Shown here: piece by piece, positions 6,201-41,095 of the stretch
Position numbering within the stretch: position 1 is the first letter of the stretch
How the letters are laid out: each line of letters begins with the position of its first letter
Source: a virus
DNA length: 41,953 bases
Direction: 5' to 3' (one strand)
Virus record (IMG/VR): IMGVR_UViG_3300045988_168287
Made by a program: the position numbers and the translations under genes
Notes under the pieces: model-generated
The model's database searches: none
What the model was told of the DNA's origin: nothing
What the model saw: only the letters and a program-made list of their open reading frames with translations

Positions 6201-8183
6201 CCTCCAATATTTCAGAGTGAATGATGTCGCAACTGACAGCAACTTGATGGCGATTCCTCCAGTACTGATGCTGTATTTAACTACAGGCAGCAACTTCTCG
6301 CCTAATTCGATAGCCAATTCATGGAAACGATTCTTAGCTTTTTCAATATCACCTTGTATAGTCGTGTTCTGAACGTCGAACTCTTCAATAACAGATGTTG
6401 CTTCTTTATATGCGTTTGTGGCAATCTCTTGCCGAGAGCGTACATCATCTATCTTATCAGCCATAGTAGAGAGGACCGCGACAGCACGTGTGCCATCAAG
6501 TCCCATATCACCAAACATCTTGCCGAGTTGGTCGAAGCCTCCCTTAGACTTCAGATTATCCATGAGAGTTAATACTGCAGTATTTATATCTGTCTTGACG
6601 AGATTAGAGAATGTTTTGAGGTCAACGCCTGCCATCTTAGCGAATGTCTTAGTGTCGGTCGACATCTTAGTAAGAAGCTGAGAGAAAGCCGTCGAAGCCA
6701 TTTCATCTTTCTGCATATTCTCGTCCATCACAGCACCAAAGCCCATTATTTGAGCTTGTGTCAAACCAACCTGTTTACCCACACCTGCCACACGAGCGGT
6801 AAACTCTACTAAATATCCAGCAGATGCAGATGAGTTCTGAGCAAGCTCATTAATGGCAGAGCCTGTAGCGAGCATAGCACCACGCAAACCAAGCCTGTCA
6901 TCTTCACCGAAAGCCATAGCTAATTTACCTACCTTATCGATGGCATCATCTCCAAGGTCATCACCAAGAGCTACGCTAATCTTATCGGCAGCATCGACAA
7001 ACTCCTCAATAGAATCTTTTGAAGTAATGCCCAGGCGACCTGCAGACTCAGCAAGCTCATTAAGGTGTTTACGTGGTGTGCGTGTATCAATCTTCTTGAA
7101 GTCCTCGTTCATCTCCATCACCTCTTCCATTGACTGACCTGTATACTTTCGTACATTGTTCATCTCCTGGTCCATCTCTGTATAGGCATCCACGCATTGA
7201 CGCACATTGGCTGACAAACCAGAGAACGCTGCAATAGTCTGAGTTATTGCACCCCAGTTCTTATTGAGAAAGTTGGCTGTTTTACCGAAGAGGGATTCTG
7301 ACTTCTCTTGTTCTCCATTAATAGCAGCTATCTGTGCTTTCAATTTCTTGGCATGGTCCGTCAGATCTTCGAATGCTGCAGTACCTTGCTTCTGATCAGC
7401 GAGTCGTTCGTTTACAATCTTGAGAGAATATTGAAGGTCACGTAGCGACGCGCCACTTATATTCTTGAGAGTTGCATCTATCAGATTATTCTCTCTGACA
7501 AGGTCCGTTACGGATCTTGTAGCAGCTTTTATCTCTTCGTCATATTTGTCGATGGTTAGGTTTGCCTCTTTCTGCGAGGTATTAAGTTGCTGAATACGAT
7601 TTTTAATCTTAGACAGGTTTTCAGCAGTCTCGTGATAAGCGGTATCATCTGGTTTGATATCTCCAAGCTTTTGCTGCAGCAATGTAGCTGCAGCTGTCAG
7701 TTCATTAAGAGAAGCGCCATCAATGTTACCTAAAACATTCTTGAGATTATCAGCAGCTTGATCGAGCGCTTGCAGTTCTTTCTTAGACTGTATAGACGAA
7801 GCCTTTAATTCATCCATGCGGTCTTTGCAGCGTTGTAGGATTTTATTGAGCTCATTATATTCGTCAGGCTTTGTTACCTGCTTCATAGCACGACGCACTT
7901 CACGAGCAGCTTTCTCAATATCTCCAAGCGATGAAGTTCCGAGATTATTGATTACGTCTATAGTTTTTGATACATTGCTACCATAAGCTTTGATACTCGC
8001 CTCTGCTGCTTTTATTTCCTTATCAAACTTATTGATATCTTTAACTAAAGTTTCAGGATTACGAAGAGCATCCGTCTTCTTCTTCTTCAATGCTTCAAGA
8101 CGCTTTTCAAGATCTGCTATATCGTCTTTAGCCTCTTGAGCATTGAGACTTATGATGGTTCGAAAAGTCTGAGTTTTTTCCAT
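3282..8183 (-). CDS. Tail tape measure protein (1633 aa)
   Basis: The central segment (NNVRKYTGQS..GRLGITSKD..AMAFGED..ATGSAINELAQNS..) looks like the TP901-type TMP core as I recall it. It also has mid-protein hydrophobic helices, a very long Lys/Glu coiled coil, and C-terminal GYYEGGFT..GVVHEGEFV. Confidence 0.85.
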   Translation of the reverse strand: MEKTQTFRTIISLNAQEAKDDIADLEKRLEALKKKKTDALRNPETLVKDINKFDKEIKAAEASIKAYGSNVSKTIDVINNLGTSSLGDIEKAAREVRRAMKQVTKPDEYNELNKILQRCKDRMDELKASSIQSKKELQALDQAADNLKNVLGNIDGASLNELTAAATLLQQKLGDIKPDDTAYHETAENLSKIKNRIQQLNTSQKEANLTIDKYDEEIKAATRSVTDLVRENNLIDATLKNISGASLRDLQYSLKIVNERLADQKQGTAAFEDLTDHAKKLKAQIAAINGEQEKSESLFGKTANFLNKNWGAITQTIAAFSGLSANVRQCVDAYTEMDQEMNNVRKYTGQSMEEVMEMNEDFKKIDTRTPRKHLNELAESAGRLGITSKDSIEEFVDAADKISVALGDDLGDDAIDKVGKLAMAFGEDDRLGLRGAMLATGSAINELAQNSSASAGYLVEFTARVAGVGKQVGLTQAQIMGFGAVMDENMQKDEMASTAFSQLLTKMSTDTKTFAKMAGVDLKTFSNLVKTDINTAVLTLMDNLKSKGGFDQLGKMFGDMGLDGTRAVAVLSTMADKIDDVRSRQEIATNAYKEATSVIEEFDVQNTTIQGDIEKAKNRFHELAIELGEKLLPVVKYSISTGGIAIKLLSVATSFTLKYWRVIVVLASGIVAYTLVVKAEAIAEKAATAAKMASAAADKLKAVRTAFAASAQEAYNIAVKVGTRQITLATAAQQLWNKAILANPYSAILATMVAVTATLVAFTSKADKATKAQRELNEANEEAAADCRSEVAELSSLVKLAQDKSSSDEVRKEAIKKLQEKYPGYLDNLNLENIYSNNARKAVDNLTDSILAQAKARVYLSKVEELEREKQNVNEEYLNDWWGKMSHTFTSQFQALANNIAHYAEKGYNAVSQGVGNWQFNRGLKGFKEGWNEETYIEREGYGLNIAQQYNRNHQAELNDLSRMQNVYLEKYREVQKQEAENLKNVRKANKDLGSQGDQSTSNNSEEYESEAERKKREQEERKAAIATRKAEAERKRKEAQAKKDLQAAIKAQQAITDAELVENYRRYTDENLAYRDFMQQQYEIKSKGIDAQIELYGKDSDEAQALLKKKTELEKQYQQDRLKMDNEEIQRKHANIAIDLQMAYEKKGAQEELFKGENALKEELYHNEDALNEAMYQNDINMLKSRQSLYKKDSQEWLDIDTEIKQRQKEQELTREQRYNDLLAQYRAEWGRKDIKEQEDIALKGLDSLHSKKLLKEEEYEEMKKKIRLHYAELESSENLKNSAGEQFKQNVQSAYNTASNNAQADYSDKHPNGLNVGNLLTSDIDIYKSTLDNIKSMETEGVISHQEAMAAMSEATANMCNNLVTKMQAAMDTVSPLLSGMSSYYAAQSDYEVTVTEKKYEKLINAAGNNTAKTKKLEEKKEKEVAKIKSKYARKQVAMQIAQAIAQTALSAIAAYSSAMKGVPFPANLTLAPVAAGIAAAAGAIQIATIKKQQQAQETGYYEGGFTSGKRYRREAGVVHEGEFVANHNAVNNPSILPALQLIDQAQRNNTVSTLTAADISRSIGQGGATVVSAPSVTVQTDNEDLKNTIDDTNIVIDNLRDLLAAGVHAKLSMAELDREWKHYQRLQSNK

Positions 8184-19529: not shown

Positions 19530-20364
19530 TGAATACGAATGCTGATGAATCTTTAGTATTTTTGAAGCTCTCGATATGCGCAGCATCATAGGATGCTGTC
19601 TCTGGATATATAGAGTATATCTCAGGGTTCTGCTCCACCTCGCGCTCTATACGTCGATAGAGTGGGGTAGAGATGGCTGCTTTTCCGCTTACGTTCCATT
19701 TGTCTGTGAAGTCGCATATCAGCTGCAGTATTCCTGCATACGGTGTCAGCCTATCATGGTCATCGCATCGCCATGCATCGAGGATATCATCCATCTGTTC
19801 GTCTGATATTCTCAAGCGTAGAGTCTCGTCGGCATCGATGATAGCTCGCTGCATAGCCTGCCAGTCTTGATACGACCGTGCCTTGGTTGCCATGGGCGAA
19901 AAGAAGAAATAATTCTCAGTATAGATGTAGCGGATATAGTTCTTTGCCTGCATCGTCTTGCCCCATTCTTTAGATCGTAGCAAATCCACGGTCATAGCCC
20001 TTGCCCTGCATAGTGCTGTGCGTAGCTGTCCCTCGAGCGCATCCACTCTCTGCTTCGATGCAGGCGATATGGTGTCGTTTGACACAATGCCAAAGCCTGT
20101 AGGTGTCAACACCAGGTCCAACTGTCTGAACACCGAGAGAAAACCATCCACACATACCATTATCTTATAGTACTGCAGTAGTCTGCCATTCTCTCCTTCT
20201 TCAGCTATCCGCTTCAAGCCTGCTTCGCCAAGCAGATTGCTTGAGTAATTATCGTTAGCAATGTCTATTGCAGGCATCACACTTTCAAACACCTCGCTAT
20301 GAGCTGAGCAACCTACTGGCAGCGCTTGCTCGAAGTCTTCTTTAGATATTGTTATCGTTGTCAT
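19522..20364 (-). CDS. Hypothetical structural-module protein
   Basis: Probable start MTTITISKEDFE at 20364. It follows the portal gene. Confidence 0.45.
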   Translation of the reverse strand: MTTITISKEDFEQALPVGCSAHSEVFESVMPAIDIANDNYSSNLLGEAGLKRIAEEGENGRLLQYYKIMVCVDGFLSVFRQLDLVLTPTGFGIVSNDTISPASKQRVDALEGQLRTALCRARAMTVDLLRSKEWGKTMQAKNYIRYIYTENYFFFSPMATKARSYQDWQAMQRAIIDADETLRLRISDEQMDDILDAWRCDDHDRLTPYAGILQLICDFTDKWNVSGKAAISTPLYRRIEREVEQNPEIYSIYPETASYDAAHIESFKNTKDSSAFVFNG

Positions 20365-21805
20365 TGCTATTGCTATTAGAATTAGTAACCTTCTTGGCAT
20401 CTTTGTTCTCATCGAGAGTGGTGAGCTGTATCATTGGCACATCCACCGTCACCTTGTCGCTCCATCCGTTGTAGTGGAGTATCAGATGATATGGCTTGGT
20501 CAGTATGTCGTGGCATGGCTTCTCTATAGCCTGCTTCAGCGTGAAAAGCTCGCGCTTGTCGCTACCTGAATTGTTCATCTGACTCTTGCCTGGTGTGGCT
20601 CCCACCAGGTTAGGATGAATGCCGAAGGCGAAGCAGAGAGCATTCGAAGCTTCGCTCATATCGTCGCTCCAGTTACCGCCTTCCTTCTTGTTGGCATCGT
20701 TGAGTGGCACTATGCGCACCATTCTGTTCTCCTTGCCGTTTGGGTCTACATAGTATCCGCTAATCATAGCCTTACCCGCGTTCTCGATGCCTGTTACGAA
20801 GTCAATGATGTTCTGCTTCTCTTCCTCCTTGCGCTTTTTGCGTAGTGGCTCGTCTGATATTCCTTCGTTGTCGCAAACGTTGTCCCAATACTCTTCGTGC
20901 ACTTCTATCTGTACTCGTGGAGCCGAAGTATTCTTAATCATATATCGTTTGCCAATACCTATCAAGCGATAGATATCAAACCAGGCATCGCGGAATATCG
21001 AAGAGTAATATGGTACAGGGTACATCTGACAGCCTGGTGTTGCCATACGGCTCAATATAGCAAACTTGCGCTCCTTGGTAGGTTTGTTCTTGAGTCCTGT
21101 CTCAGGATTAGGCATTTTGCCCATTCGTACCATCAGGTCGCCAAGCGGATTGAAATAGTCGAGCAATGGTATCACCTCAATCTTGCTTTCGTCAAAGAAA
21201 CCGAGTCGCCAGTCGCCATAGAACACATGTTCCGACTTGCCTGAAGCTGTAGAACCTGCATATTCAAATCTGCAGTATGAGGCATCCTTGTTTCTTACCG
21301 TCACTATCTTTGTGCCATCCTTCGATAGGATGATAACCGTAACCGAGAAGAAGAAGAACTTGAAGTCGGTAACCTGCTCGAGGAATACCTCCTGTAGCGA
21401 GTTGTATAGACAGAAGTCGCGAATTTCTTTGTCGCTTACGTCTTTTCTCGTCTCTCTATCCACGAAGCGCACTCCCTGGCCATAGCACGACACGATGTTG
21501 AACTGCTGACATTGTGCCGTCACCATATTCTCCATCAGTTTCTTTCTCACCTCGTAGGGCAATTGGTCATTCCTGCCCCATTGCACATACTTATACTCTC
21601 GCTTCTTCACCACTATTTGTCTCACGCTCGATGCTCCTGGCAGATCGTCATCATCGAAAACATTCATAGAGTCGCCACCATATTCTGAAGCTACAGAGTT
21701 GCCTTCCGACGACGAGCCTATTCCTGTAGGCACAATTCTATATTTGCGATAGCCGTCAGCATCTGCATGCGATGTAGGCTGCAGGGTATTTTTGTTTTTG
21801 CTCAT
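20342..21805 (-). CDS. Portal protein
   Basis: 487 aa from MSKNKNT (ATG 21805). Size, an acidic/Asn-rich C-terminal tail, and a segment ..FGIHPNLVGATPGKSQMNNSGSDKRELF.. are typical of portal cores (from memory). The 95-aa upstream extension in the track overlaps another gene. Confidence 0.6.
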   Translation of the reverse strand: MSKNKNTLQPTSHADADGYRKYRIVPTGIGSSSEGNSVASEYGGDSMNVFDDDDLPGASSVRQIVVKKREYKYVQWGRNDQLPYEVRKKLMENMVTAQCQQFNIVSCYGQGVRFVDRETRKDVSDKEIRDFCLYNSLQEVFLEQVTDFKFFFFSVTVIILSKDGTKIVTVRNKDASYCRFEYAGSTASGKSEHVFYGDWRLGFFDESKIEVIPLLDYFNPLGDLMVRMGKMPNPETGLKNKPTKERKFAILSRMATPGCQMYPVPYYSSIFRDAWFDIYRLIGIGKRYMIKNTSAPRVQIEVHEEYWDNVCDNEGISDEPLRKKRKEEEKQNIIDFVTGIENAGKAMISGYYVDPNGKENRMVRIVPLNDANKKEGGNWSDDMSEASNALCFAFGIHPNLVGATPGKSQMNNSGSDKRELFTLKQAIEKPCHDILTKPYHLILHYNGWSDKVTVDVPMIQLTTLDENKDAKKVTNSNSNSNDNDNNI

Positions 21806-22047
21806 AAGTATATTTTTTGATTGTTTATCTGTATGATGAATATCTGAGGAATGGTACGCAGCTCTCGATTCTTGGGATTTCTCAAGCGTATAAAACCTTG
21901 TCGCCATGCCACATGGTGCACAAGCCAGCCCTTGTAGTGAATAATGGCGCCTGTTTCGCCCTTGTAAGCGTATACGTCTACAAGGGCTCGATGCTGATAT
22001 GCTTGGTCTATCTGGCGCAGCATCTCGGTGAAATGGATAGCTTTCAT
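21802..22047 (-). CDS. Small hypothetical protein (81 aa), translationally coupled on both sides
   Basis: ATGA overlaps at 22044..22047 (with the upstream gene) and at 21802..21805 (with the portal start). Confidence 0.55.
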   Translation of the reverse strand: MKAIHFTEMLRQIDQAYQHRALVDVYAYKGETGAIIHYKGWLVHHVAWRQGFIRLRNPKNRELRTIPQIFIIQINNQKIYL

Positions 22048-23090
22048 TCGAAGGTATTGTCAAAGGTGTTGTCGAATATTCTGCCTGCACGTTCCATATT
22101 CAGCACATTATGATTACGCTGAGCATACTGGTATGAGAAGGTGAATCGAGGCAGCGACGTAGGCTTGTTGTCGTATTCCGACTTCGAGTCTGTTATTATC
22201 ACCTCTTTGCCCACGTTCGGGTTGCCATTCTTGAAGGTTACTATATGCACGTTCATCGAACGGAATAGCTCGTCCACCCAGTTTGCCATGGTGAACGACA
22301 GTATGCCTGTGTCGGCTTTGAACACCCTTGTTTCGGTAATCGCATAATTGCGTTGGGTTTTGCCTATATACGCTTGCTCGCGTTTGTACGATGGCGCTAT
22401 GGTGTGTGTGCCTGTGCAATAGATTAGTTCCTCCACTCCGAACGAGTTGTCGAATACCAGAACTGGAGCGCAGTCAGGCTCATCAAAATCGATTGTGAAC
22501 CGGAACGTGCGCTTTCCAGCCTGGACATCATAACATAGCAACGTCTTGCCTGCCATGGCAAACTGCTCTGCCGACACATCGAGTGTGGTATAGCGGTCGT
22601 TGCCTCCAACAGGCAATATCGAGAAAGATTTATTAGTGCCATCGTCATAGTAGGCTGTCGCGGTAGCCTTGTCGGTACCGATATAGTGTAGATATTCCAG
22701 GCGATGAAGACTCGTCACCTTCTCGCCCTCGAGCAATGTCAGATAGTGAGTCTCTATGAAGTCTTGAGCAGTAGTATTGATATCCACCTCGCTATATATG
22801 ATATCTGCCTCCATGCTTTTGGTAGACATGATGGTCTCGTTGTCGGCATCCTGTTCGGCAATCTGTATCTTCAACTTCACCTTCAGACGCTTCTTGGCAT
22901 AAGGAGTGAGTAGACGGTCGAGCTCGGCAAGCGTAATCACACCTGCCAGCGGATATAGATATTCCTGGTATACCTGTTCGTCGTCTACCGTCATCGTCAC
23001 CATGGCGCGGTTGCCACCTATCGAGAATTCCACATCGGGAACATTCGATGATAAATATGTGCCAGATATAGATTGAGTTATTGTTATCAT
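22044..23090 (-). CDS. Hypothetical virion-module protein (348 aa)
   Basis: Start MITITQS at 23090 fits the -7 box at 23109..23116. It is the first gene of the portal transcription unit. Confidence 0.5.
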   Translation of the reverse strand: MITITQSISGTYLSSNVPDVEFSIGGNRAMVTMTVDDEQVYQEYLYPLAGVITLAELDRLLTPYAKKRLKVKLKIQIAEQDADNETIMSTKSMEADIIYSEVDINTTAQDFIETHYLTLLEGEKVTSLHRLEYLHYIGTDKATATAYYDDGTNKSFSILPVGGNDRYTTLDVSAEQFAMAGKTLLCYDVQAGKRTFRFTIDFDEPDCAPVLVFDNSFGVEELIYCTGTHTIAPSYKREQAYIGKTQRNYAITETRVFKADTGILSFTMANWVDELFRSMNVHIVTFKNGNPNVGKEVIITDSKSEYDNKPTSLPRFTFSYQYAQRNHNVLNMERAGRIFDNTFDNTFE

Positions 23091-23108
23091 CCTTTTATTC
23101 TTTTTAGG

Positions 23109-23116
23109 CAAAGATA
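23109..23116 (-). promoter_or_regulatory. -7 promoter box TATCTTTG
   Basis: The + strand reads CAAAGATA, 18 nt upstream of the ATG at 23090 and just downstream of a terminator. Confidence 0.45.
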
Positions 23117-23145
23117 GACGATTCATTTAGCTACATAAAATACAC

Positions 23146-23177
23146 AAAAAAAAGCAGCACTCTCACGAGCGCTGCTT
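23146..23177 (-). terminator. Rho-independent terminator ending the five-gene accessory operon
   Basis: AAGCAGC (23152..23158) pairs with GCTGCTT (23171..23177). On the - strand a T8 run follows (+ strand A-run 23146..23153). Confidence 0.6.
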
Positions 23178-23293
23178 CCCTTTGTGTGTATCCTAACTCT
23201 CACGAGCTTAATACTTACACCCCTAAAACTTAAGTGAATCATATTCACTAAACCAATGTTTATAAAAAATGTAAAATAAATGTTTCCTTCTTG

Positions 23294-23569
23294 TTATTCT
23301 ATATGGCTATCGTAGTAGCGGTAAATCATCCATTTCAATCTACCGTCCTCTGTAGGTACGAGCGAATAGCCATGGTCTACCAGATATTTGCTCAACAGTC
23401 CTTTGCTGATGTCGTACATATCTGACAGGTCATCAATAATTTCTGTTGTCGACTTTGGCTCTGGGACATTCATCTGACCTGTGATATCTTTCCCAGGCAG
23501 CGGACTGCGCTTGTCGAAATAAGCTTCGATATATTCGAGCTGCATTTTCTCGTCGTCTTCTTCTGTCAT
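23294..23569 (-). CDS. Hypothetical protein (91 aa), acidic
   Basis: ORF with a 4-nt overlap to the upstream gene. Last gene of the operon. Confidence 0.5.
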   Translation of the reverse strand: MTEEDDEKMQLEYIEAYFDKRSPLPGKDITGQMNVPEPKSTTEIIDDLSDMYDISKGLLSKYLVDHGYSLVPTEDGRLKWMIYRYYDSHIE

Positions 23570-23799
23570 GATTCTATTGATTTTTTTAGATCTTTCAAAT
23601 TCTTGCTCATTCTCCTAAGGTTAGAGGCTACATCCAGTCTGTGTGCTGCCTCCTCGTTGCTCATTATGTCGGGCGAAACGTCAAGATAGTCGTCCATCAC
23701 ATCGTCCAGTAGTTGTATCTGCACTTCCAATGTATCGATATCGAGCATTGGTCTCAGAAGATTAAGAGTCTGCTCGCTGAAATTATTATTGTTCTCCAT
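23566..23799 (-). CDS. Hypothetical protein (77 aa)
   Basis: Start MENNNNFSEQ at 23799. The longer track ORF (to 23937) overlaps the upstream gene out of frame. Confidence 0.45.
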   Translation of the reverse strand: MENNNNFSEQTLNLLRPMLDIDTLEVQIQLLDDVMDDYLDVSPDIMSNEEAAHRLDVASNLRRMSKNLKDLKKSIES

Positions 23800-24250
23800 T
23801 TTCTTTTCCTCCTTTATCTTTTTTGTTGTCGTTGTACAATGATTTAATAATTTCCATATCGCCACCATGGGCTTTGTACTGGCTAAACAGCAGCGCACGC
23901 TCATTCTCGAGCAACACGTTGTTGCGAGCGTGCTCACTCTTCAGATGAGCCATTTCGCGGATGTGGTCGTTGTAAGCTCTGCGCTTCTTGTTAGCGAGGA
24001 ACTTGTCATCCTGGTCGCAGGCTTCTATCGCTTTCAGGTATTTGTCCTTACTCTTCTTGCGGTCTGCAGCTACCATGGCTTGACCCTTCGATATTTCCTC
24101 CGTTAGCGAGATATATCTTTCGTCTTCTTCCGTGCGAGCTCGAGCAAACGACTCGCGATTCTTATTCATTCGCTCCACAATATCCAAGAGCTGAGCCTGT
24201 AGTTCCTGCAGAGTGAGGATATTGAATGTAGGCATATTGTTAGTTGGCAT
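23786..24250 (-). CDS. Hypothetical coiled-coil protein (154 aa)
   Basis: Lys/Glu/Arg-rich heptad-like sequence in operonic packing. Confidence 0.5.
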   Translation of the reverse strand: MPTNNMPTFNILTLQELQAQLLDIVERMNKNRESFARARTEEDERYISLTEEISKGQAMVAADRKKSKDKYLKAIEACDQDDKFLANKKRRAYNDHIREMAHLKSEHARNNVLLENERALLFSQYKAHGGDMEIIKSLYNDNKKDKGGKENGEQ

Positions 24251-24593
24251 GGCTGTCCTCCTTTCCTTCGATGATGGTTACTTTCTTTTTGTTGTCGCGA
24301 AGCCATTCTTCGGCAGCAGCAATAGCAGGCAACATCACTTCTCTAAAGTTCTTGTCATTCGTAATCAGCGATGCTATTATGCCGGCAAGAAAGCCCTTAT
24401 TGCCACCTGTACCAAGATATGAGATTCTGTCTTCGTTGTAGCCAAGGATGAGGAATCCACGCTTCTCGTTAGCGTCTTGCCACTTACTGAGCTTCTCTAT
24501 CACCTTGTTTAAACTATCGAAGCCTGTCATCATCTCTGCTGCTTCTTCCTCGCTAATCTTCTCGGCTGTTACCTTAGGAACCTTGATTTTCAT
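24240..24593 (-). CDS. Hypothetical protein (117 aa)
   Basis: ORF with a 4-nt overlap to the upstream gene. Confidence 0.5.
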   Translation of the reverse strand: MKIKVPKVTAEKISEEEAAEMMTGFDSLNKVIEKLSKWQDANEKRGFLILGYNEDRISYLGTGGNKGFLAGIIASLITNDKNFREVMLPAIAAAEEWLRDNKKKVTIIEGKEDSHAN

Positions 24594-24976
24594 TTCTCGC
24601 CTCCTTTCTCGCCTTCTTTCTTGAAATCTTTGCTGTTGAAGCGATAAACCACCCAGCCTGTGATGCCTGCAGAGGCAAAGGCCTGTAGAGGAGCAGTAGT
24701 AGCCAGGACGACCGTTGCCACCATAAGCAAGGGCACCACAAAACCTATCACGGCTACTGTCTGATTGTTTACTTCGAAGCCTGCCAATCGGCTATAGGCT
24801 TCGTTCTTTTTCAGCATAGCCAGCTGCACCTTCGCCTTGAGCTGGGCGCAGCTGGCTTTAATGCCTGAAAAGTTATCACTTGCAGCCTTGGCTGCACCAT
24901 TCATGTCGAGTGCTCCTGGAGCACCAAACAAGGTAGTTTCGTTCTGGAAACTGATTGTTGTTTTTTGGTTTGTCAT
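24590..24976 (-). CDS. Hypothetical membrane protein (128 aa)
   Basis: Start MTNQKTTISF at 24976. C-terminal hydrophobic hairpin (VAVIGFVVPLLMVATVVLATT..AGITGWVVY). The 146 residues upstream in the track ORF look noncoding (repeats and hairpins). Confidence 0.5.
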   Translation of the reverse strand: MTNQKTTISFQNETTLFGAPGALDMNGAAKAASDNFSGIKASCAQLKAKVQLAMLKKNEAYSRLAGFEVNNQTVAVIGFVVPLLMVATVVLATTAPLQAFASAGITGWVVYRFNSKDFKKEGEKGGEK

Positions 24977-24980
24977 ACCA

Positions 24981-25046
24981 CGATTCTTTATCCTTGCAGC
25001 CGATATAAACGGGTGACGGCTGCACTTCCCGTTGGATAAAGAATCG
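24981..25046 (-). promoter_or_regulatory. 66-nt structured leader element: 13-bp closing helix enclosing an H-type pseudoknot, 4 nt from the start codon
   Basis: P1 is 24981..24993 with 25034..25046 (13/13 bp). P2 is 24996..25002 with 25017..25023 (7 bp). P3 is 25008..25013 with 25028..25033 (6 bp). P2 and P3 interleave, and 52 of the 66 nt are paired. Confidence 0.5.
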
Positions 25047-25226
25047 TAGTATACTCCGAGGAGAAACCAATTCACGAGAAGGCAGCCGTCATAATATTGT
25101 CTATATCCTTTATAAAAAAGAATAGAGTATGCGAACCGCGCAAAGGCATAAAAAAAGCCCGAGCAAGCGTGCCGAGCGAAATACTGTCGCTCCCCAGCGT
25201 AGATTACTACGATCTTTTTCCATGGG

Positions 25227-25234
25227 CAAAGGTA
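25227..25234 (-). promoter_or_regulatory. -7 promoter box TACCTTTG for the accessory operon (about 245-nt leader)
   Basis: The + strand reads CAAAGGTA. No canonical -33 box was seen. Confidence 0.4.
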
Positions 25235-25391
25235 GGCAAAAGGAGCGACACCACCAAGCAATTGAAGGGAAATGTTACCGCAAAATGATAAATTTAACAT
25301 TTCCACATTATATATATAATATTCCCGATAGATGAGATGCTTGGTATTCTCCATTTTCGTAAGCTCACGAAAATGGTCGCGCCCACAAATG

Positions 25392-25489
25392 CGACTATTC
25401 GTGTAAACCCTCACGACTACTCGAATCAGCCATTTCGGCTATTCGCATCGTCCATTTCGACTATTCGCGTAAACCCTCACGGTTACTCG
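25392..25489. repeat. Direct repeats: 32-mer x2 plus CCATTTCGRCTATTCGC x2
   Basis: 25392..25423 and 25458..25489 share 29/32 nt (CGACTATTCG.GTAAACCCTCACG..TACTCG). 17-mers lie at 25430..25446 and 25452..25468 (16/17). Confidence 0.85.
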
Positions 25490-25555
25490 CCTTGGCAAAC
25501 GATACATAAAAAAAAGCAAAAAGAGTATTATTATCAATACTTTTATGGCTAAATA

Positions 25556-25587
25556 TTTGTATATTAGTATTATTTTTACTACCTTTG
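25556..25587 (+). promoter_or_regulatory. Canonical Bacteroidota promoter for hicAB
   Basis: TTTG (25556..25559), a 20-nt spacer, TACCTTTG (25580..25587), and the ATG at 25613. Confidence 0.65.
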
Positions 25588-25612
25588 CATTGTCAAACAA
25601 AAGCTCTTTGAT

Positions 25613-25807
25613 ATGAGAAAGTACAAAGTATCTGAAGTCATCAAGCTGTTGGAGCGAGACGGATGGGTGAAAATAGCTGAGAAAGGCGACCACAAACAAT
25701 TCAAACACCCGGACAAACCAGGCAAGGTGACAGTAAGAGGGCAGAAGAGCGAGGTGCTTAGCCAATTTCTTCTGAACAGCATTTGGAAACAAGCGGGGTG
25801 GCGATAA
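25613..25807 (+). CDS. hicA: HicA-family mRNA interferase toxin
   Basis: 64 aa. KVSEVIKLLERDGW..KGDHKQFKHPDKPGKVTV matches the HicA (YcfA-like) pattern. Confidence 0.85.
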   Translation: MRKYKVSEVIKLLERDGWVKIAEKGDHKQFKHPDKPGKVTVRGQKSEVLSQFLLNSIWKQAGWR

Positions 25808-25865
25808 GCGCCCCGCCCCTTTCCGAGGTTTGACTAAAAAATAGACAACTAACACCTATATTGAT

Positions 25866-26276
25866 ATGGAAAAGATTATAGTAGAAGTAAGATGGTGCGA
25901 CCATAACTTTGGAGCCACATTATCAGACAACGTACCAGGAGCCATCGTCTTAACAGCCAAAACCTACGATGAACTGCAGAAAGAAGTGCCTGAAACACTC
26001 CAGTTTCACCTTGAAGGGATGAAAGCCGATGGCGATGAGATTCCGCAATGGCTCGCCGAGGGCGATTACGAGTTCGTCTACCACCTCGACACTGCTGCGC
26101 TCATACGATCGTGCGAGCGCTACGCCTCGCTTGCTGCCATTTCGCGAGCTTCCGGAGTGAACGAGCGACAACTAAGCCACTACGCCAATGGACTTAAGAA
26201 GGCACGCACGCAGCAGCGCGAGCGCATAATAGAAGGATTGCACAGAATAGGACGCGAACTGCTGTCCATATCATAG
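25866..26276 (+). CDS. hicB: HicB-family antitoxin with C-terminal HTH
   Basis: 136 aa immediately downstream of hicA. The N-terminus is HicB-like (VRWCDHNFGATL..) and the C-terminus is XRE-like (ISRASGVNERQLSHYANGLKKA). Confidence 0.8.
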   Translation: MEKIIVEVRWCDHNFGATLSDNVPGAIVLTAKTYDELQKEVPETLQFHLEGMKADGDEIPQWLAEGDYEFVYHLDTAALIRSCERYASLAAISRASGVNERQLSHYANGLKKARTQQRERIIEGLHRIGRELLSIS

Positions 26277-26297
26277 AGCATATTTGACAATCACAGT

Positions 26298-26338
26298 AAG
26301 CCCGACCGCCAGAAATGGAGGTCGGGCTTTTATATTTG
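26298..26338 (+). terminator. Rho-independent terminator of hicAB
   Basis: AAGCCCGAC (26298..26306) pairs with GTCGGGCTT (26321..26329), followed by TTTATATTT. Confidence 0.8.
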
Positions 26339-26340
26339 TT

Positions 26341-26377
26341 AAAGAAAAAGCCCTCGATGCTTCACGCACAGAGGGCT
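26341..26377 (-). terminator. Rho-independent terminator, convergent with the hicAB terminator
   Basis: AGCCCTC (26349..26355) pairs with GAGGGCT (26371..26377). On the - strand TTTTTCTTT follows. Confidence 0.6.
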
Positions 26378-26464
26378 AAAGAGTTCTTTTAATCATGAAA
26401 CGTTGCGAAGTCAGAACTTGCAGCGGTCATGGTGCCGCATGGTCGTGCGGCGGTGTTGAATTAA

Positions 26465-26653
26465 TTAAACAGTGACCATTTCAATATCCTTGGCAGTCGT
26501 CTTGATAAGCCCCTCCAAAGCTTCTGTAAAAGCCTGTTCGTTCTCACTCCTTAAAGCGTTCATCTCAGCGGATACTGCTGCACGCTCCTCGTCGGTCGTT
26601 GCCAAGCGGTTGCGCTCAGCAAGAGCCTTAATCTTATCCTTATAATCTGTCAT
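26465..26653 (-). CDS. Small hypothetical helical protein (62 aa)
   Basis: Start MTDYKDKIKAL at 26653. The track's longer version runs through a 5' UTR hairpin. Confidence 0.45.
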   Translation of the reverse strand: MTDYKDKIKALAERNRLATTDEERAAVSAEMNALRSENEQAFTEALEGLIKTTAKDIEMVTV

Positions 26654-26898
26654 AATAATATATCTTGTTAGGCAAGTACAATCGTCGTGGAGGTCGACTG
26701 ATTGTACGGATACTTGCAAATAATGATTCTACGAATCAACATTTATTAAAAGCACTTGCAAAGTAACTCAAAAAAATCTGTTTCTACAAGTTTTTGCAAT
26801 AATTTATGGTTTCTACCTATTGTTTTTGCTCGTTTTAATGCTTAAAACGAGCTATATAGATATATAAAAGCATGGTTTTTTACCTCTTTTTCCATAGC

Positions 26899-26949
26899 TG
26901 CAAAATTCAACCACCTTGTTTTCAATGAGTTATGTGGTTGAATTTTGCA
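26899..26949. other. 16-bp perfect inverted repeat with 19-nt loop in a 490-nt noncoding stretch
   Basis: TGCAAAATTCAACCAC (26899..26914) pairs with GTGGTTGAATTTTGCA (26934..26949). There is no flanking T-run, so it is not a typical terminator. Confidence 0.8.
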
Positions 26950-27112
26950 ACTTGCGCTTTCTGCTGTCTTTGCAGCACTACACCGCCCTACGCCAAGTTG
27001 GCAATTGCCCCTTATGCTCATAGCGGAATATGTAGCGAGATTTGCAACCATGTAAATGATTTTGTCTTGTCGCTCGTGGGCGGTTGTGCGAAACGTGAAC
27101 ATGGCAATTGCC

Positions 27113-34062: not shown

Positions 34063-35172
34063 TTACACGTCTTTAATGCTGTTATACATATCCTGTGCGG
34101 TGAAGCTGTTCTCTTCATTCGCAGGATTCTCGGTTGTGGTGGCACCTGCAGAACCTTTAAGATTCTGAATCTGCTCATCCTTCTCCTTTGACTCTTTCTG
34201 AGCCTGAGAGAGCTGAGCTTTGAGGTTGTTGATGGTATCGTCTTTATCTTTGACGGCTTGAGAGTTGGTTTTATCCTTCTCCTCAAGATCCTTCAAACGA
34301 TCATCGATACTCTTCAGCTGCTCCTGAGTGAGAGTGATATTGCCCTCATCATTAGTCTGAAAACCGTCAATGGCAAGCAACGCCATGACTGAAGCAAAGA
34401 TTTTAATCATTTTATGAGGTTGTTTTGGTGCGTGTTGGTTACGGAAGAGGTTCTTAAGCTGCTCACACGTCTTCTCGAGAAAGCTCGCGGTTGGATTGCC
34501 ATTGCCATCAACAACTGACGAGATGCTTGGAGTAGCATCTTCTTGCAGAGTAGAAGGTAGTGGCGGTATACCTGCATCCTTGAATATGTTAGAATATGAG
34601 TTGACAAACTGATTGGTATGCTCGGCTGCAGCCTTCTCTGTCTCCTTGTCTTCACGTATGCTGTCAACAAGTCCGAAGTCTTTAGCCTGCTGAGCGCTAA
34701 GCCAATTGCCTTTCTTCATCTGAGCAAGACATTCGTCAATGGTCTTACCTGTCTTGTCGGCATACATCGATGCCAGAACATCGTCGAAGGTCTTGAGCGA
34801 TTCACGCTGAGCTTTGAGCTTCGCAATGTAGTTATCTATCTGTTCCTTGTTGCTCTGCTCGTACTTGTCGATGAGGACAGAAACATTATGAATAAGGAAG
34901 AAGCTGCCTTTTACGATATCGATAGTCTTGCAACCAAGCATGGCAATTGTAGATATCGAGGCATTCATACCAAAAGCATGAGCATGAACGTTGCCATGGT
35001 CCTTGAATGCCTGGTTCATCTCTAAGCCATCCTTCACAAAGCCACCCAGAGAGCAGAAGCCGACATGTACTTCTTTGCCTTTGTTCTGACTGAGCACATA
35101 GCGAACATAGTCAGCAGAGCAGCTACCCCACCAACTACCAATTGTGCCAGATATTACGAGATTATATTCCAT
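34063..35172 (-). CDS. Prohead protease (ClpP/S14-like) fused to a coiled-coil scaffold domain
   Basis: N-terminal half has GMNASISTIAMLG (Ser) and FFLIHN (His), arranged as in ClpP-type proteases. The C-terminal half is Lys/Glu coiled coil. Confidence 0.75.
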   Translation of the reverse strand: MEYNLVISGTIGSWWGSCSADYVRYVLSQNKGKEVHVGFCSLGGFVKDGLEMNQAFKDHGNVHAHAFGMNASISTIAMLGCKTIDIVKGSFFLIHNVSVLIDKYEQSNKEQIDNYIAKLKAQRESLKTFDDVLASMYADKTGKTIDECLAQMKKGNWLSAQQAKDFGLVDSIREDKETEKAAAEHTNQFVNSYSNIFKDAGIPPLPSTLQEDATPSISSVVDGNGNPTASFLEKTCEQLKNLFRNQHAPKQPHKMIKIFASVMALLAIDGFQTNDEGNITLTQEQLKSIDDRLKDLEEKDKTNSQAVKDKDDTINNLKAQLSQAQKESKEKDEQIQNLKGSAGATTTENPANEENSFTAQDMYNSIKDV

Positions 35173-40543: not shown

Positions 40544-41095
40544 TTAGAAGTTCATTAATTGGAGATGTTTAATAATCCCTCTGCAGTCTTTAACTCCAAG
40601 TTTACGCTTGATGCGGAAGAGCTGCACCTTGATAGTATTAAGATTCTTGCCTAATTCTTTTGCTATTTCCTTGCACGTATACCCGTCGACGTATAGCTTA
40701 GCAGCTCTTGCCTCTTCCGGAGATAGATTGACCACACTTTTAGGTTTACAAATCACATTTTCATCAGGGCAAAAACCTCCACGTAGAGGGCATTTTACTT
40801 CTTCAAAGTGTAGCTTTCTACCTTCAATATCTGCAGTAAGCAAATCATGCTCACCAAAGTTACAGCGTACAAAACGTTCAAGCATCTTGAAGATTCGGTC
40901 GTTCATAGTCCCTTTATTCTTGCTTGCCTGGTATAATTCTGCCAGGCGAGCGTAACAAACAGGGAAACGCTCTTCTATAATTGGGAGTAGGGGATGAATC
41001 TCTGTGCTGAACTTGGTTAACTTTCGCTCATCACCTCCATTTACACTATAATACACCTTACCATTTGGTGAGGTGTGGAATTCTATCTCTTCCAT
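40544..41095 (-). CDS. LuxR/GerE-type HTH transcriptional regulator
   Basis: C-terminal LSPEEARAAKLYVDGYTCKEIAKELGKNLNTIKVQLFRIKRKLGV matches the LuxR-type HTH. A Cys-containing segment lies upstream (CPLRGGFCPDENVIC). Confidence 0.7.
   Translation of the reverse strand: MEEIEFHTSPNGKVYYSVNGGDERKLTKFSTEIHPLLPIIEERFPVCYARLAELYQASKNKGTMNDRIFKMLERFVRCNFGEHDLLTADIEGRKLHFEEVKCPLRGGFCPDENVICKPKSVVNLSPEEARAAKLYVDGYTCKEIAKELGKNLNTIKVQLFRIKRKLGVKDCRGIIKHLQLMNF

What the first reader, a model, noticed from the sequence alone, without database searches (positions are those of the whole stretch)
24981..25090. Helix-enclosed H-type pseudoknot abutting the start codon, with competing upstream pairings
On the - strand RNA the element reads CGAUUCUUUAUCC-AACGGG-AAGU-GCAGCCG-UCA-CCCGUU-UAUAU-CGGCUGC-AA-GGAUAAAGAAUCG, then UGGU-AUG. 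All three helices (13, 6 and 7 bp) are perfect, and the 6- and 7-bp helices interleave. The segment GCAGCCGUC (25023..25015) can instead pair with GACGGCUGC (25090..25082; 9 bp). A 9-nt segment overlapping the start of the closing helix (25051..25043) can pair with 25213..25205 near the predicted 5' end. Mutually exclusive structures next to an initiation codon are the hallmark of riboswitches, attenuators and protein-titrated leaders. In Bacteroidota, initiation depends on an unstructured leader, so this element should gate translation. I do not recognise it as a known Rfam family.
Basis: seen in the sequence. Interest (0 to 1): 0.65.

Follow-up and report, generated by a model that had tools for sequence, protein, structure and literature searches.

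The report
Barcoded two-state phage mRNA leader
The hairpin is one half of a roughly 245-nt untranslated leader, conserved in Prevotella prophages and absent from Rfam, in which the stretch just upstream of the start codon, its complement, and a copy at the predicted 5' end of the mRNA change together in 66 different versions, which is the signature of an RNA switch that hides or exposes the start of a small membrane-protein gene.

Summary
P1, P2 and P3 are at the stated coordinates. P1 extends to 21 bp and covers the AUG. P3 is 8 bp. Interleaved helices this long occur in 1 of 30,000 shuffles of the 40-nt cap.

The hairpin is part of a larger element: a non-coding leader that runs from a Bacteroidota -7 promoter box (25234-25227) to the AUG (24976). 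I found it in well over 100 Prevotellaceae phage and prophage loci, in three clades. It has no Rfam match.

Three segments co-vary in 66 distinct combinations:
- 'a', at the predicted transcript 5' end;
- C, the P1 5' arm;
- D, the P1 3' arm, which is the A-rich initiation region.

C:D is 100% paired and a:C is 94% paired, against about 50% in shuffles. Departures from Watson-Crick pairing are almost all G·U on the sense strand. The pseudoknot itself is clade-specific.

Best reading: a bistable translational switch built like the hok mRNA (start-region mimic, anti-start-region, start region, plus a metastable 5' hairpin). It controls a holin-like two-helix membrane protein at the head of an operon that runs into the portal gene. 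The trigger is unknown, and the reason for the diversity of this 'barcode' is unexplained.

The parts
25227..25234 (-). -7 promoter box TACCTTTG (Bacteroidota sigma-ABfr type, TAnnTTTG). The predicted transcription start is about 25222.
   Evidence: Pattern match. A TAnnTTTGCC box sits 5 nt before the first paired base of 'a' in the genuine leaders listed for all three clades, apart from two or three mis-detected or truncated rows. The consensus and its -7 position are from PMC7366714. The start site itself is inferred.
25205..25221 (-). Segment 'a' (GGAAAAAGAUCGUAGUA). It is a copy of the start-codon-proximal sequence D, placed at the predicted 5' end of the transcript, and it is complementary to C.
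   Evidence: Co-varies with C and D in all 7 window-clade variants for which the 5' part is held, and in 66 distinct triplets overall. The window's own copy carries one mismatch (A25218); sister contigs have T there.
25198..25211 (-). H1: a small 5' hairpin (CGUAG-UAAU-CUACG) that ties up the 3' third of 'a' with segment B.
   Evidence: At least 10 different compensating stems across the family, for example GAUGG/CCAUC, AGUGG/CCACU, CAUGA/UCAUG, GACGA/UCGUC and CGUGA/UCACG. Within the window clade C-G changes to G·U.
25174..25192 (-). H2 hairpin, GAGCGA-CAGUAUU-UCGCUC.
   Evidence: Compensatory variants elsewhere: GAGCA/UGCUC, GGACA/UGUCC, GAGCG/CGCUC.
25145..25160 (-). H3: GGGC, a U7 loop, then AUGCC. 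This is a hairpin with a U-rich loop, not a terminator.
   Evidence: Stem variants CGGGC/GCCCG, AGGGC/GCCCU and AGGAC/GUCCU. In some members the U-run is replaced by UUAAAGA. The terminator scan finds nothing here on the - strand.
25082..25090 (-). x1 (GACGGCUGC): an upstream decoy complementary to the centre of the cap (25023-25015).
   Evidence: 9 bp in the window. Other clades have GGCGGUUGCC pairing with GGCAGCCGC, which turns an A-U pair into G-C. Clade 3 has GGCGGUUCGC pairing with GCGAGCCGC, which adds one base pair on both strands.
25054..25063 (-). H4: a small tetraloop hairpin, CUC-CUCG-GAG, just before C.
   Evidence: The equivalent in relatives is GCCC-UUCG-GGGU.
25034..25053 (-). 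C: the 5' arm of P1, which pairs with the start region (anti-start-region strand). 25046-25034 pair perfectly; 25053-25047 extend the helix with two G·U pairs.
24994..25033 (-). Cap enclosed by P1. P2 is 25033-25028 with 25013-25008. P3 is 25024-25017 with 25002-24995. Together they form the H-type pseudoknot of the finding.
   Evidence: The 38-nt P2/P3 core (25033-24996) is invariant in the window clade apart from one loop position (A/G at 25027), a 2-nt AA insertion ahead of it in L020/L022, and one G-C to G·U change in L032. The two linker bases 24995-24994 vary (AA, GA or GU). Interleaved helices of this length occur in 1 of 30,000 shuffles. The fold of the cap differs in other clades.
24974..24993 (-). 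D: the 3' arm of P1. It is the A-rich translation initiation region and, in this clade, includes the AUG.
   Evidence: In 78 unique leaders the frequency of A is 0.55-0.76 at positions -10 to -15 and 0.79 at -3.
24590..24976 (-). Controlled gene: a 128-aa protein with a soluble N-terminal part, two predicted membrane helices and a charged C-terminal tail. Its stop codon overlaps the start of the next gene.
   Evidence: Translation. The family alignment shows a conserved FYSR..F.VT motif. No Pfam, PHROG or NCBIfam family matches.

Best explanation
The hairpin is the 'closed' state of a two-state, cis-acting translational switch built into the leader, which is 200-340 nt long across the family and about 245 nt here.

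Shown:
- The RNA contains three matched segments: 'a' at its predicted 5' end, C about 170 nt downstream, and D just before the AUG.
- C can pair with D. This is P1, capped by a structured core, and it buries the A-rich initiation region.
- C can instead pair with 'a', which leaves D and the AUG single-stranded.
- A second, inner toggle has the same logic. The centre of the cap pairs either with its local partner (P3) or with an upstream decoy, x1.
- A small 5' hairpin, H1, can hold part of 'a'.

Inferred:
- Closed means translation off and open means translation on. Bacteroidota ribosomes use no Shine-Dalgarno sequence and depend on an unstructured, A-rich start region.
- The decision is made while the RNA is being transcribed. 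'a' and C exist before D does, so the nascent RNA should start open. D (with P3) then displaces 'a' (and x1). This closure happens unless a ribosome or another factor has already engaged.
- In the window clade the closed form is clearly the more stable. In the other clades the two forms are nearly equal in energy.
- The product is a small, holin-like membrane protein that is translationally coupled to the next gene, at the head of an operon running into the portal gene. The switch would therefore set how much and when this protein is made, and through coupling possibly the downstream genes too.

Not known: the trigger that biases the choice between states.
For: Structure:
- P1: 100% of 792 cells paired, and 12 of 12 pairs show changes on both sides. 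The covariation score is 1.115 against 0.199 in shuffles, and slid controls give 33-43% paired.
- a:C: 94.4% paired against 50.7% in shuffles and 33-47% in slid controls. The covariation score is 0.996 against 0.193.
- The cognate 'a' is the best partner of its own C in 43 of 50 triplets. Mean duplex energy is -20.7 against -6.8 kcal/mol, and 0 of 10,000 permutations reach the observed mean.
- Of the internal a:C positions that are not Watson-Crick, 18 are G·U on the sense strand and only 2 are mismatches. This points to RNA, not DNA.
- In clade 3, 'a' systematically has U where D has C, opposite a G in C.
- H1 has at least 10 compensating stems.
- x1:centre shows an A-U to G-C change and a coordinated 1-bp insertion. 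The insertion is shared with the P3 partner.

Position:
- 'a' starts 5 nt after the TAnnTTTG box in all three clades.
- D ends 3-6 nt before the AUG, or over it in the window clade. It carries the A-enrichment at -10 to -15 and at -3. This is the pattern reported to favour translation in Bacteroidota (PMC7366714).

Energetics:
- Transcripts cut just before D fold with a:C in every window-clade member, and in 56 of 80 leaders overall.
- Full-length window-clade RNAs fold closed, and are about 5-12 kcal/mol more stable than the same RNAs with D blocked.
- In other clades open and closed differ by no more than about 3 kcal/mol.

The leader is non-coding: in most members there is an in-frame stop 2-5 codons upstream of the AUG.
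Against: - There are no expression, structure-probing or 5'-end data. The transcription start, the on/off assignment and the kinetic scheme are all inferences.
- 'a' was located by its similarity to D, so part of the a:C score follows from how it was found. Its fixed distance from the promoter box is the independent support.
- If a:C and x1:centre form together they make a long-range pseudoknot, which the folding programs used here cannot evaluate.
- A purely cis-acting switch gives no obvious reason for the diversity of the matched segments. In one pair of contigs they differ at 12 of 56 columns. The other 608 leader and gene columns differ at 5, and the gene is identical.
- In two window-clade variants (L001, L003) a 3-4 nt insertion moves the AUG just outside the perfect helix. 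Sequestering the AUG itself is therefore not essential.
Confidence: 0.6

Rival explanations
1. The matched segments are specificity determinants for RNA-RNA recognition in trans, in the manner of the P1/P7 c4 or P4 CI immunity RNAs. Those RNAs follow the order target, antisense RNA, second target over the start of the first gene. A processed fragment carrying C (or 'a') from one phage genome would act on transcripts of a co-resident or superinfecting relative only if the barcodes match, and selection for escape would drive barcode diversity.
For: - The order a - C - D is the same as a1b1 - c4 - a2b2 in P1 and seqA - seqB - seqC in P4. This comparison rests on my own knowledge of those systems and was not checked in a paper here.
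- There are 66 distinct triplets, and non-cognate duplexes are weak (-6.8 against -20.7 kcal/mol).
- Five barcode variants co-exist in contigs from one metagenome sample, 3300045988.
- Barcode columns differ about 25 times more than the flanks in a minimal pair. Their diversity (0.17-0.29) exceeds that of four-fold sites in the adjacent gene (0.07).
- Tandem modules on one contig carry different barcodes.
Against: - The window holds no further copy of the barcode that could serve as a separate target or regulator.
- C is fully paired in both states, so it is a poor trans-acting antisense RNA unless it is processed.
- No processing signal has been identified.
- Barcode diversity is of the same order as four-fold diversity in the next two genes (0.17 and 0.13). 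Old alleles shuffled by recombination could explain it.
- I did not identify a lysogeny or immunity function for the operon.
Confidence: 0.15
2. P1 (15-21 bp of perfect duplex) is mainly an RNase III processing site. Cleavage would remove the leader and release a short-leader, translatable mRNA. It could instead set the mRNA half-life. The a:C duplex would be a second substrate.
For: The helix length is that of classical RNase III substrates such as the phage T7 sites and the lambda N leader (my own knowledge). The helix is kept perfect while its sequence is free to vary. This explanation is compatible with the switch model rather than exclusive of it.
Against: It does not explain why a third copy at the 5' end and a fourth (B) must co-vary. 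It also does not explain the x1 decoy. There are no cleavage data.
Confidence: 0.1
3. A ligand-binding riboswitch, or a leader titrated by a protein. The cap (pseudoknot) would be the sensor, and binding would stabilise the closed state.
For: - The architecture of a closing helix plus a structured cap, with competing anti-P1 and anti-cap strands, is that of a riboswitch expression platform.
- The motif GCAGCCG is conserved from the window clade through types A-D, and clade 3 has the one-base-longer GCGAGCCG.
Against: - The cap differs in length (40 to about 82 nt), topology and sequence between clades. It is a pseudoknot in the window clade and type A. It is a nested three-way junction in type B and clade 3. 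The P4 hairpin is absent from the window.
- That degree of difference is not expected of a conserved ligand pocket.
- There is no Rfam match.
Confidence: 0.07
4. The repeats act at the DNA level, as operators for a DNA-binding protein or as recombination or inversion sites (two direct copies and one inverted copy). On this view the RNA pairing is incidental.
For: One copy overlaps the predicted transcription start, which is a typical place for an operator. Inverted repeats flanking short segments are common in Bacteroidales invertible elements (my own knowledge).
Against: - Departures from perfect repeats are almost all G·U-compatible on the sense strand (18 against 2 internally; the systematic U/C difference in clade 3). 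DNA recognition would not produce that bias.
- The same orientation is seen in every locus, so there is no sign of inversion.
- The unit is not a palindrome.
- A fourth partner, B, co-varies as a local hairpin.
Confidence: 0.03

Closest known systems
hok mRNA of the hok/Sok type I toxin-antitoxin system (tac, ucb, mok start region, metastable 5' hairpin, fbi)
   Same: - A 5'-terminal element (tac, here 'a') competes with the start region for an anti-start-region box (ucb, here C).
- A local hairpin at the extreme 5' end ties that element up early in transcription (here H1).
- The alternative folds are revealed by coupled covariation.
- The product is a small membrane protein.
The description of hok is taken from PMC9841398.
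   Different: - I found no antisense RNA gene; there is no + strand TAnnTTTG box nearby.
- There is no 3'-end fold-back element matching 'a'.
- There is no overlapping mok-like reading frame.
- There is no Shine-Dalgarno sequence; the sequestered element is an A-rich region.
- The protein is 75-128 aa with two membrane helices.
- The context is the head of a phage morphogenesis-side operon.
- There is a second, inner toggle.
- The diversity of the matched segments is far greater.
Antisense immunity RNAs cut from the operon they control: P1/P7 c4 (immI) and P4 CI RNA
   Same: The order is target copy, complementary segment, then a second target copy over the start of the first gene, all on one transcript. 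Specificity changes through coordinated substitutions in all copies (my own knowledge; not checked in a paper here).
   Different: No evidence of processing or of action in trans. The complementary segment is part of a perfect hairpin with its target. No RNase P-type structure. No link to an antirepressor or a replication operon.
Start-site sequestor/anti-sequestor leaders (ermC-type translational attenuation, riboswitch expression platforms)
   Same: Mutually exclusive helices decide whether the initiation region is single-stranded.
   Different: There is no conserved leader peptide: the frame of the only candidate is kept in about 36 of 85 leaders. There is no conserved aptamer. The anti-sequestor is the transcript's own 5' end and is a copy of the start region.
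Phage lambda S (holin) mRNA sdi stem-loop
   Same: An RNA helix abutting the start codon of a small phage membrane protein at the head of a late operon (my own knowledge).
   Different: sdi chooses between two start codons. It has no 5' decoy and no matched triple.
H-type pseudoknots in phage leaders (T4 gene 32 autoregulatory pseudoknot)
   Same: Interleaved helices in a phage 5' leader upstream of the regulated start codon.
   Different: Here the pseudoknot sits inside a long closing helix, it is clade-specific, and the evidence for function lies in the closing helix and its competitors.

Membership tests
Any Rfam 15 family | Covariance-model match at the family's gathering score | tested here: not met
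   No hits in the window or in four related loci at gathering thresholds. The E-value scans of three leaders gave only spurious weak hits: MIR2646 at E = 1, anti-hemB at E = 0.085 (17.9 bits against a 49.5 cut-off) and mir-3192.
H-type pseudoknot | Two helices in which the loop of the first pairs with sequence 3' of it, with loops long enough to cross the grooves | tested here: met
   P2 (6 bp) and P3 (8 bp) interleave, with connecting loops of 3, 3 and 5 nt. The chance rate is 1 in 30,000 shuffles. Steric feasibility is judged from general rules, not modelled.
H-type pseudoknot | Both helices supported by compensatory change in relatives | tested here: inconclusive
   - P3 is supported. L032 and L213 have G·U-compatible changes. 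The homologous helix GUGCAG/CUGUAU becomes GUGCGAG/UUCGUAC in clade 3, a coordinated insertion.
- P2 is invariant in the window clade, loses one end pair in L213, and has no homologue with the same topology in type B or clade 3.
hok/Sok-type toxin mRNA | 5' element, anti-start-region box and start region with coupled covariation, plus a metastable 5' hairpin | tested here: met
   a/C/D covariation. H1 has at least 10 compensating stems.
hok/Sok-type toxin mRNA | Cis-encoded antisense RNA (Sok) with its own promoter on the opposite strand | tested here: not met
   There is no TAnnTTTG box on the + strand between 21794 and 25580. Other promoter types were not covered.
hok/Sok-type toxin mRNA | 3'-terminal fold-back element complementary to the 5' element | tested here: not met
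   Apart from P1 itself, there is no further copy of the barcode or its complement in the 42-kb window at up to 3 mismatches in 16, except one chance-level hit at 10981.
hok/Sok-type toxin mRNA | Toxin of about 50 aa with one membrane helix, and an overlapping mok frame | tested here: not met
   The product is 75-128 aa with two hydrophobic helices and a 45-70 aa soluble N-terminal part. The toxicity of the protein was not testable.
P1 c4 / P4 CI type immunity RNA | Stable antisense RNA excised from the leader and acting in trans on matching targets | not testable with these tools
   Only the order of the complementary segments could be compared.
Riboswitch | Sensor domain with conserved sequence and fold across relatives | tested here: not met
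   Cap length, topology and sequence differ between clades. Only the GCAGCCG motif (GCGAGCCG in clade 3) is shared.
Leader-peptide (ermC/trp type) attenuator | Conserved short reading frame in the leader whose translation changes the fold | tested here: not met
   The candidate frame runs from AUG 25149 to the TGA at 25074-25072. It is kept in 36 of about 85 leaders and is broken by 1-nt indels between close relatives.
Intrinsic terminator / transcription attenuator | G+C-rich stem immediately followed by a U-run | tested here: not met
   The U7 run lies in the loop of hairpin H3, not after a stem. Nothing U-rich follows P1.

The most novel reading that the evidence does not exclude
The 14-17-nt matched segments are addresses. 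Each phage lineage's leader would recognise only its own RNA, and diversity would be maintained by selection against cross-talk between related prophages or superinfecting phages sharing a Prevotella cell. That would be an RNA-based compatibility or immunity code governing entry into the operon that leads to the portal gene. It would be the first such system in Bacteroidota, with dozens of natural orthogonal variants.
Probability: 0.15. Interest if true: 0.85.

Novelty: new variant of a known kind. Interest (0 to 1): 0.7.

Why it matters
- Translational control in Bacteroidota is poorly understood, because these bacteria lack the Shine-Dalgarno mechanism on which most known bacterial RNA switches act. 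This leader sequesters the A-rich initiation region instead. It offers a natural, widespread and very clearly co-varying example that can be tested directly with reporters.
- The family supplies 66 natural, mutually weakly cross-pairing triplets. This is a ready-made set of orthogonal switch parts for engineering gut Bacteroidales.
- If the diversity reflects recognition in trans, it would reveal how related gut prophages tell each other apart.
- The family is a candidate for a new Rfam entry.

Tried and rejected
- Coding region: the 274-codon frame 24590-25414 runs through the element in frame with the AUG. The upstream part looks unlike protein. Most relatives have stops 2-5 codons upstream of the AUG. 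The open frame is chance.
- Leader peptide: a frame from AUG 25149 ends at a stop aligned in several clades, but it is kept in only about 36 of 85 leaders. Rejected.
- Terminator or attenuator at the U7 run: the U-run is a hairpin loop and is replaced in some members. Rejected.
- Antisense promoter: none of the TAnnTTTG type on the + strand.
- Extra barcode copies elsewhere in the window: none.
- Known phages: no blastn match for 23000-27000 in 50,697 phage records.
- Function of neighbouring genes: Pfam, PHROGs, NCBIfam and PDB sequence searches gave almost nothing. The exceptions were a weak portal hit, DUF6712, DUF5053 and a HicB-like match.
- Literature: the one search I made for a prior description (Prevotella, prophage, antisense RNA, immunity) found nothing relevant.
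- Protein-alignment search with 10 diverse members failed for lack of a conserved stretch. A 4-member alignment worked.
- I did not use structure prediction, the representative-protein search or the remaining homologue searches. The answer did not depend on them.
Full report
**1. The observation**

- P1 is 25046-25034 with 24993-24981, 13 perfect pairs.
- P2 is 25033-25028 with 25013-25008.
- P3 is 25023-25017 with 25002-24996.
- P2 and P3 interleave, and UGGU-AUG follows.

Two details were missed. P1 continues through ACUAC/GUGGU and UAU/AUG to 21 pairs (two G·U), so it contains the whole AUG at 24976-24974. P3 has an eighth pair, U25024-A24995.

The 96-nt stretch folds at -40.6 kcal/mol, with z = -6.2 against dinucleotide shuffles. 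Interleaved perfect helices of at least 6 and 7 bp arise in 1 of 30,000 shuffles of the 40-nt cap. Rfam has no match.

**2. Context**

The window looks like a Prevotella prophage.
- Integrase at 161-1348.
- Tape-measure protein at 3282-8183.
- A weak portal match at 20342-22090.
- Head protease at 34063-35172.
- A sigma-like regulator at 40544-41095.
- The closest protein cluster is named from a Prevotella MAG.

The long reading frame that runs through the element is not a gene. Its product is unlike protein, and in most relatives stops lie 2-5 codons upstream of the AUG.

The real gene starts at 24976. It encodes 128 aa: a soluble N-terminal part, two hydrophobic helices and a charged tail. 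Its stop overlaps the next start codon. Homologues are 75-128 aa and share a conserved FYSR..F.VT motif. No Pfam, PHROG or NCBIfam model covers them. 'Holin-like' describes the protein's architecture only.

**3. Relatives of the window clade**

Protein look-ups and flank-anchored DNA patterns recovered 35 loci that share the element with the window. These loci overlap; several come from the same contigs.

The whole region from the promoter into the gene is nearly invariant (diversity about 0.03). The exceptions are the two arms of P1. They occur in 8 versions, each perfectly complementary, with up to six variable positions and small indels.

The alignment then showed a third copy. It lies directly after a TAnnTTTG box (25234-25227). 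The sequence at 25221-25205 is a direct repeat of the P1 3' arm and changes with it in every variant for which the 5' part is held.

I call the copies 'a' (5' end), C (P1 5' arm) and D (P1 3' arm). Cognate a:C duplexes are worth -20 to -23 kcal/mol. Non-cognate ones are worth -5 to -16. The window's own 'a' has one mismatch, at A25218, and gives -15.6 kcal/mol.

**4. The wider family**

A profile of the leader found diverged versions next to portal genes that are 67-71% identical. A pattern from their conserved interior then found 66 viral contigs and a set of Prevotellaceae genomes. Those checked and confirmed include Hoylesella saccharolytica JCM 17484, Prevotella lacticifex JCM 34664 and Prevotella sp. 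HCN-7019. A third clade, whose small protein is only 31-41% identical, has the same layout.

The layout is the same in all three clades.
- 'a' starts 5 nt after the TAnnTTTG box in the genuine leaders of all three clades; the exceptions are two or three mis-detected or truncated rows.
- D ends 3-6 nt before the AUG outside the window clade.
- C and D pair perfectly over 12-17 bp.
- The sequences of a, C and D differ from one leader to the next.

I put 66 distinct triplets in register and counted pairs.
- C:D is 100% paired, with changes on both sides at all 12 positions. The covariation score is 1.115 against 0.199 in shuffles, and slid controls give 33-43% paired.
- a:C is 94.4% paired, against 50.7% in shuffles and 33-47% in slid controls. 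The covariation score is 0.996 against 0.193.

Two caveats apply. The C:D figure is partly by construction, because the arms were found as a helix. 'a' was found by similarity to D. Its constant position next to the promoter box is the independent check.

**5. RNA or DNA?**

At positions where 'a' departs from the perfect complement of C, 18 internal positions are G·U on the sense strand and 2 are true mismatches. In clade 3, 'a' regularly has U where D has C, opposite a G in C.

A fourth segment, B, forms a 5-bp hairpin (H1) with the 3' end of 'a'. It has at least 10 compensating versions.

This pattern is what RNA pairing on the transcribed strand predicts. Repeated protein-binding or recombination sites in DNA would not produce it. 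No locus shows the region inverted.

**6. The second competing pairing and the cap**

- GACGGCUGC/GCAGCCGUC in the window clade becomes GGCGGUUGCC/GGCAGCCGC elsewhere (A-U to G-C).
- It becomes GGCGGUUCGC/GCGAGCCGC in clade 3, with one pair inserted.
- The local partner of the same strand gains the matching base: CUGUAU becomes UUCGUAC.

So P3 has a homologue with compensatory change, and the upstream decoy x1 mimics P3's 3' strand. These are two events, counted by hand.

The cap as a whole is not conserved.
- In type A it is a different H-type pseudoknot (AGCGG/CCGCU with GGCAG/CUGCC) plus a well-covarying extra hairpin (CCCGG/CCGGG, CCACG/CGUGG, CACGG/CCGUG, CCCAG/CUGGG).
- In type B and clade 3 a nested fold is at least as good.

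P2 as drawn shows no covariation.

**7. How it probably works**

D is the translation initiation region. In 78 unique leaders the frequency of A is 0.55-0.76 at -10 to -15 and 0.79 at -3. These are among the positions whose A content is reported to favour translation in Bacteroidota, which lack Shine-Dalgarno pairing (PMC7366714). C is therefore an anti-start-region strand, and 'a' is a mimic of the start region at the transcript's 5' end.

Folding calculations give the following.
- RNAs cut just before D fold with a:C in all window-clade members and in 56 of 80 leaders overall.
- Full-length window-clade RNAs fold closed, and are about 5-12 kcal/mol more stable than with D blocked.
- In the other clades the two states are within about 3 kcal/mol of each other.
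- Pseudoknots are not modelled in these calculations.

I infer a switch in which the nascent RNA is open and translatable. Once D and the P3 partner are made, they displace 'a' and x1 and close the RNA. H1 modulates how available 'a' is. Which factor biases the outcome is unknown; ribosome loading, 5'-end decay, a protein or RNase III are all possible.

The closest described logic is the hok mRNA. There tac, ucb and the mok start region play the roles of a, C and D, and a metastable 5' hairpin ties up tac (PMC9841398). This leader is not a member of that family. I found no antisense promoter, no 3' fold-back copy and no mok-like frame, and the protein is different.

**8. The unexplained part**

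The matched segments are far more diverse than their surroundings.
- Diversity is 0.17-0.29 averaged over the arms, and up to 0.7 at single positions.
- The rest of the leader has 0.03.
- Four-fold sites of the next three genes have 0.07, 0.17 and 0.13.
- In the pair L020/L024 the gene is identical. The segments differ at 12 of 56 columns, against 5 of 608 elsewhere.
- Five versions co-exist in one metagenome sample.

Each change needs three or four coordinated substitutions. I see three possibilities.
- Selection favours new specificities, which would imply recognition in trans, as in the P1 c4 and P4 CI immunity RNAs.
- Old alleles of a tightly constrained leader are shuffled by recombination. 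The partial tandem duplications (leader plus truncated gene plus leader plus gene) show that such recombination happens.
- The start region is tuned and the other copies follow.

I cannot decide between these. I give the trans reading 0.15.

**9. Verdict**

The pseudoknot is the least general feature.

The element is a new, widespread, well-supported cis-regulatory leader of Prevotellaceae phages. It is a new variant of the start-site sequestor/anti-sequestor kind and is closest in logic to hok.

Noticed in passing
window 25268-25304 (- strand): A perfect 10-bp inverted repeat, GGAAATGTTA (25304-25295) and TAACATTTCC (25277-25268), with a 17-nt spacer. It is centred about 65 nt upstream of the predicted start site. 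The arms are invariant in the window clade, and AATGTTAAA is kept in other clades. It may be a regulator binding site for this promoter.
   Followed up: no
window 25351-25376 (- strand): A perfect 10-bp hairpin, CCAUUUUCGU-GAGCUU-ACGAAAAUGG, between the upstream gene and the promoter, with no U-run after it. Other clades have, at the same place, a 9-bp hairpin followed by a U-rich stretch (GGCGGAGAA...UUCUCCGCC UUUUCC). This looks like a terminator that insulates the leader's promoter.
   Followed up: partly
L108/L137, L171, L187, L189, L196 (relatives): Two or three tandem modules, each consisting of promoter, leader and the first 40 or so codons of the small gene, lie ahead of the complete gene. 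Each module has a different barcode. The upstream gene copies are truncated and read into the next leader.
   Followed up: partly
window 25866-26276 (+), and relatives L020-L027: A HicB-like gene, HicA_toxin genes in relatives, and several DUF5053 genes lie in the variable region just upstream of the leader. Gene content there differs between otherwise near-identical contigs, so this is a mosaic accessory region that ends at about 25414.
   Followed up: no
clade 3 leaders, e.g. L038:2550-2900, compared with L081: The leaders come in a form of about 200 nt and a form of about 330 nt. The extra 130 nt is flanked by direct repeats of the hairpin AUGCGGAGCACUCCGCAU. It contains a terminator-like hairpin (GCCCAACC...GUUGUGGGC followed by UUAUUUUUUU).
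   Followed up: no
small-protein family (one search list): The protein is itself mosaic. Two alternative N-terminal segments (…ASEVRQPVSLRER… or …AQQVRARVSLADK…) combine with two alternative membrane segments (…RVNLVTMAVLVV… or …RIGVVFPLTMVV…). This suggests frequent recombination or diversifying selection on the gene as well as on its leader.
   Followed up: no
window 25198-25211 (+ strand): Read on the + strand, hairpin H1 followed by ATCTTTTTCC scores as a terminator-like site. The T-run is part of the variable barcode and is absent in other variants, so the hit is probably incidental.
   Followed up: yes
L164 (IMGVR_UViG_3300045988_176508): In one leader the conserved cap motif GGCAGCCGC reads GGCAGGTTC. 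This breaks both the cap helix and the pairing with x1. It is either a defective copy or an assembly error.
   Followed up: no
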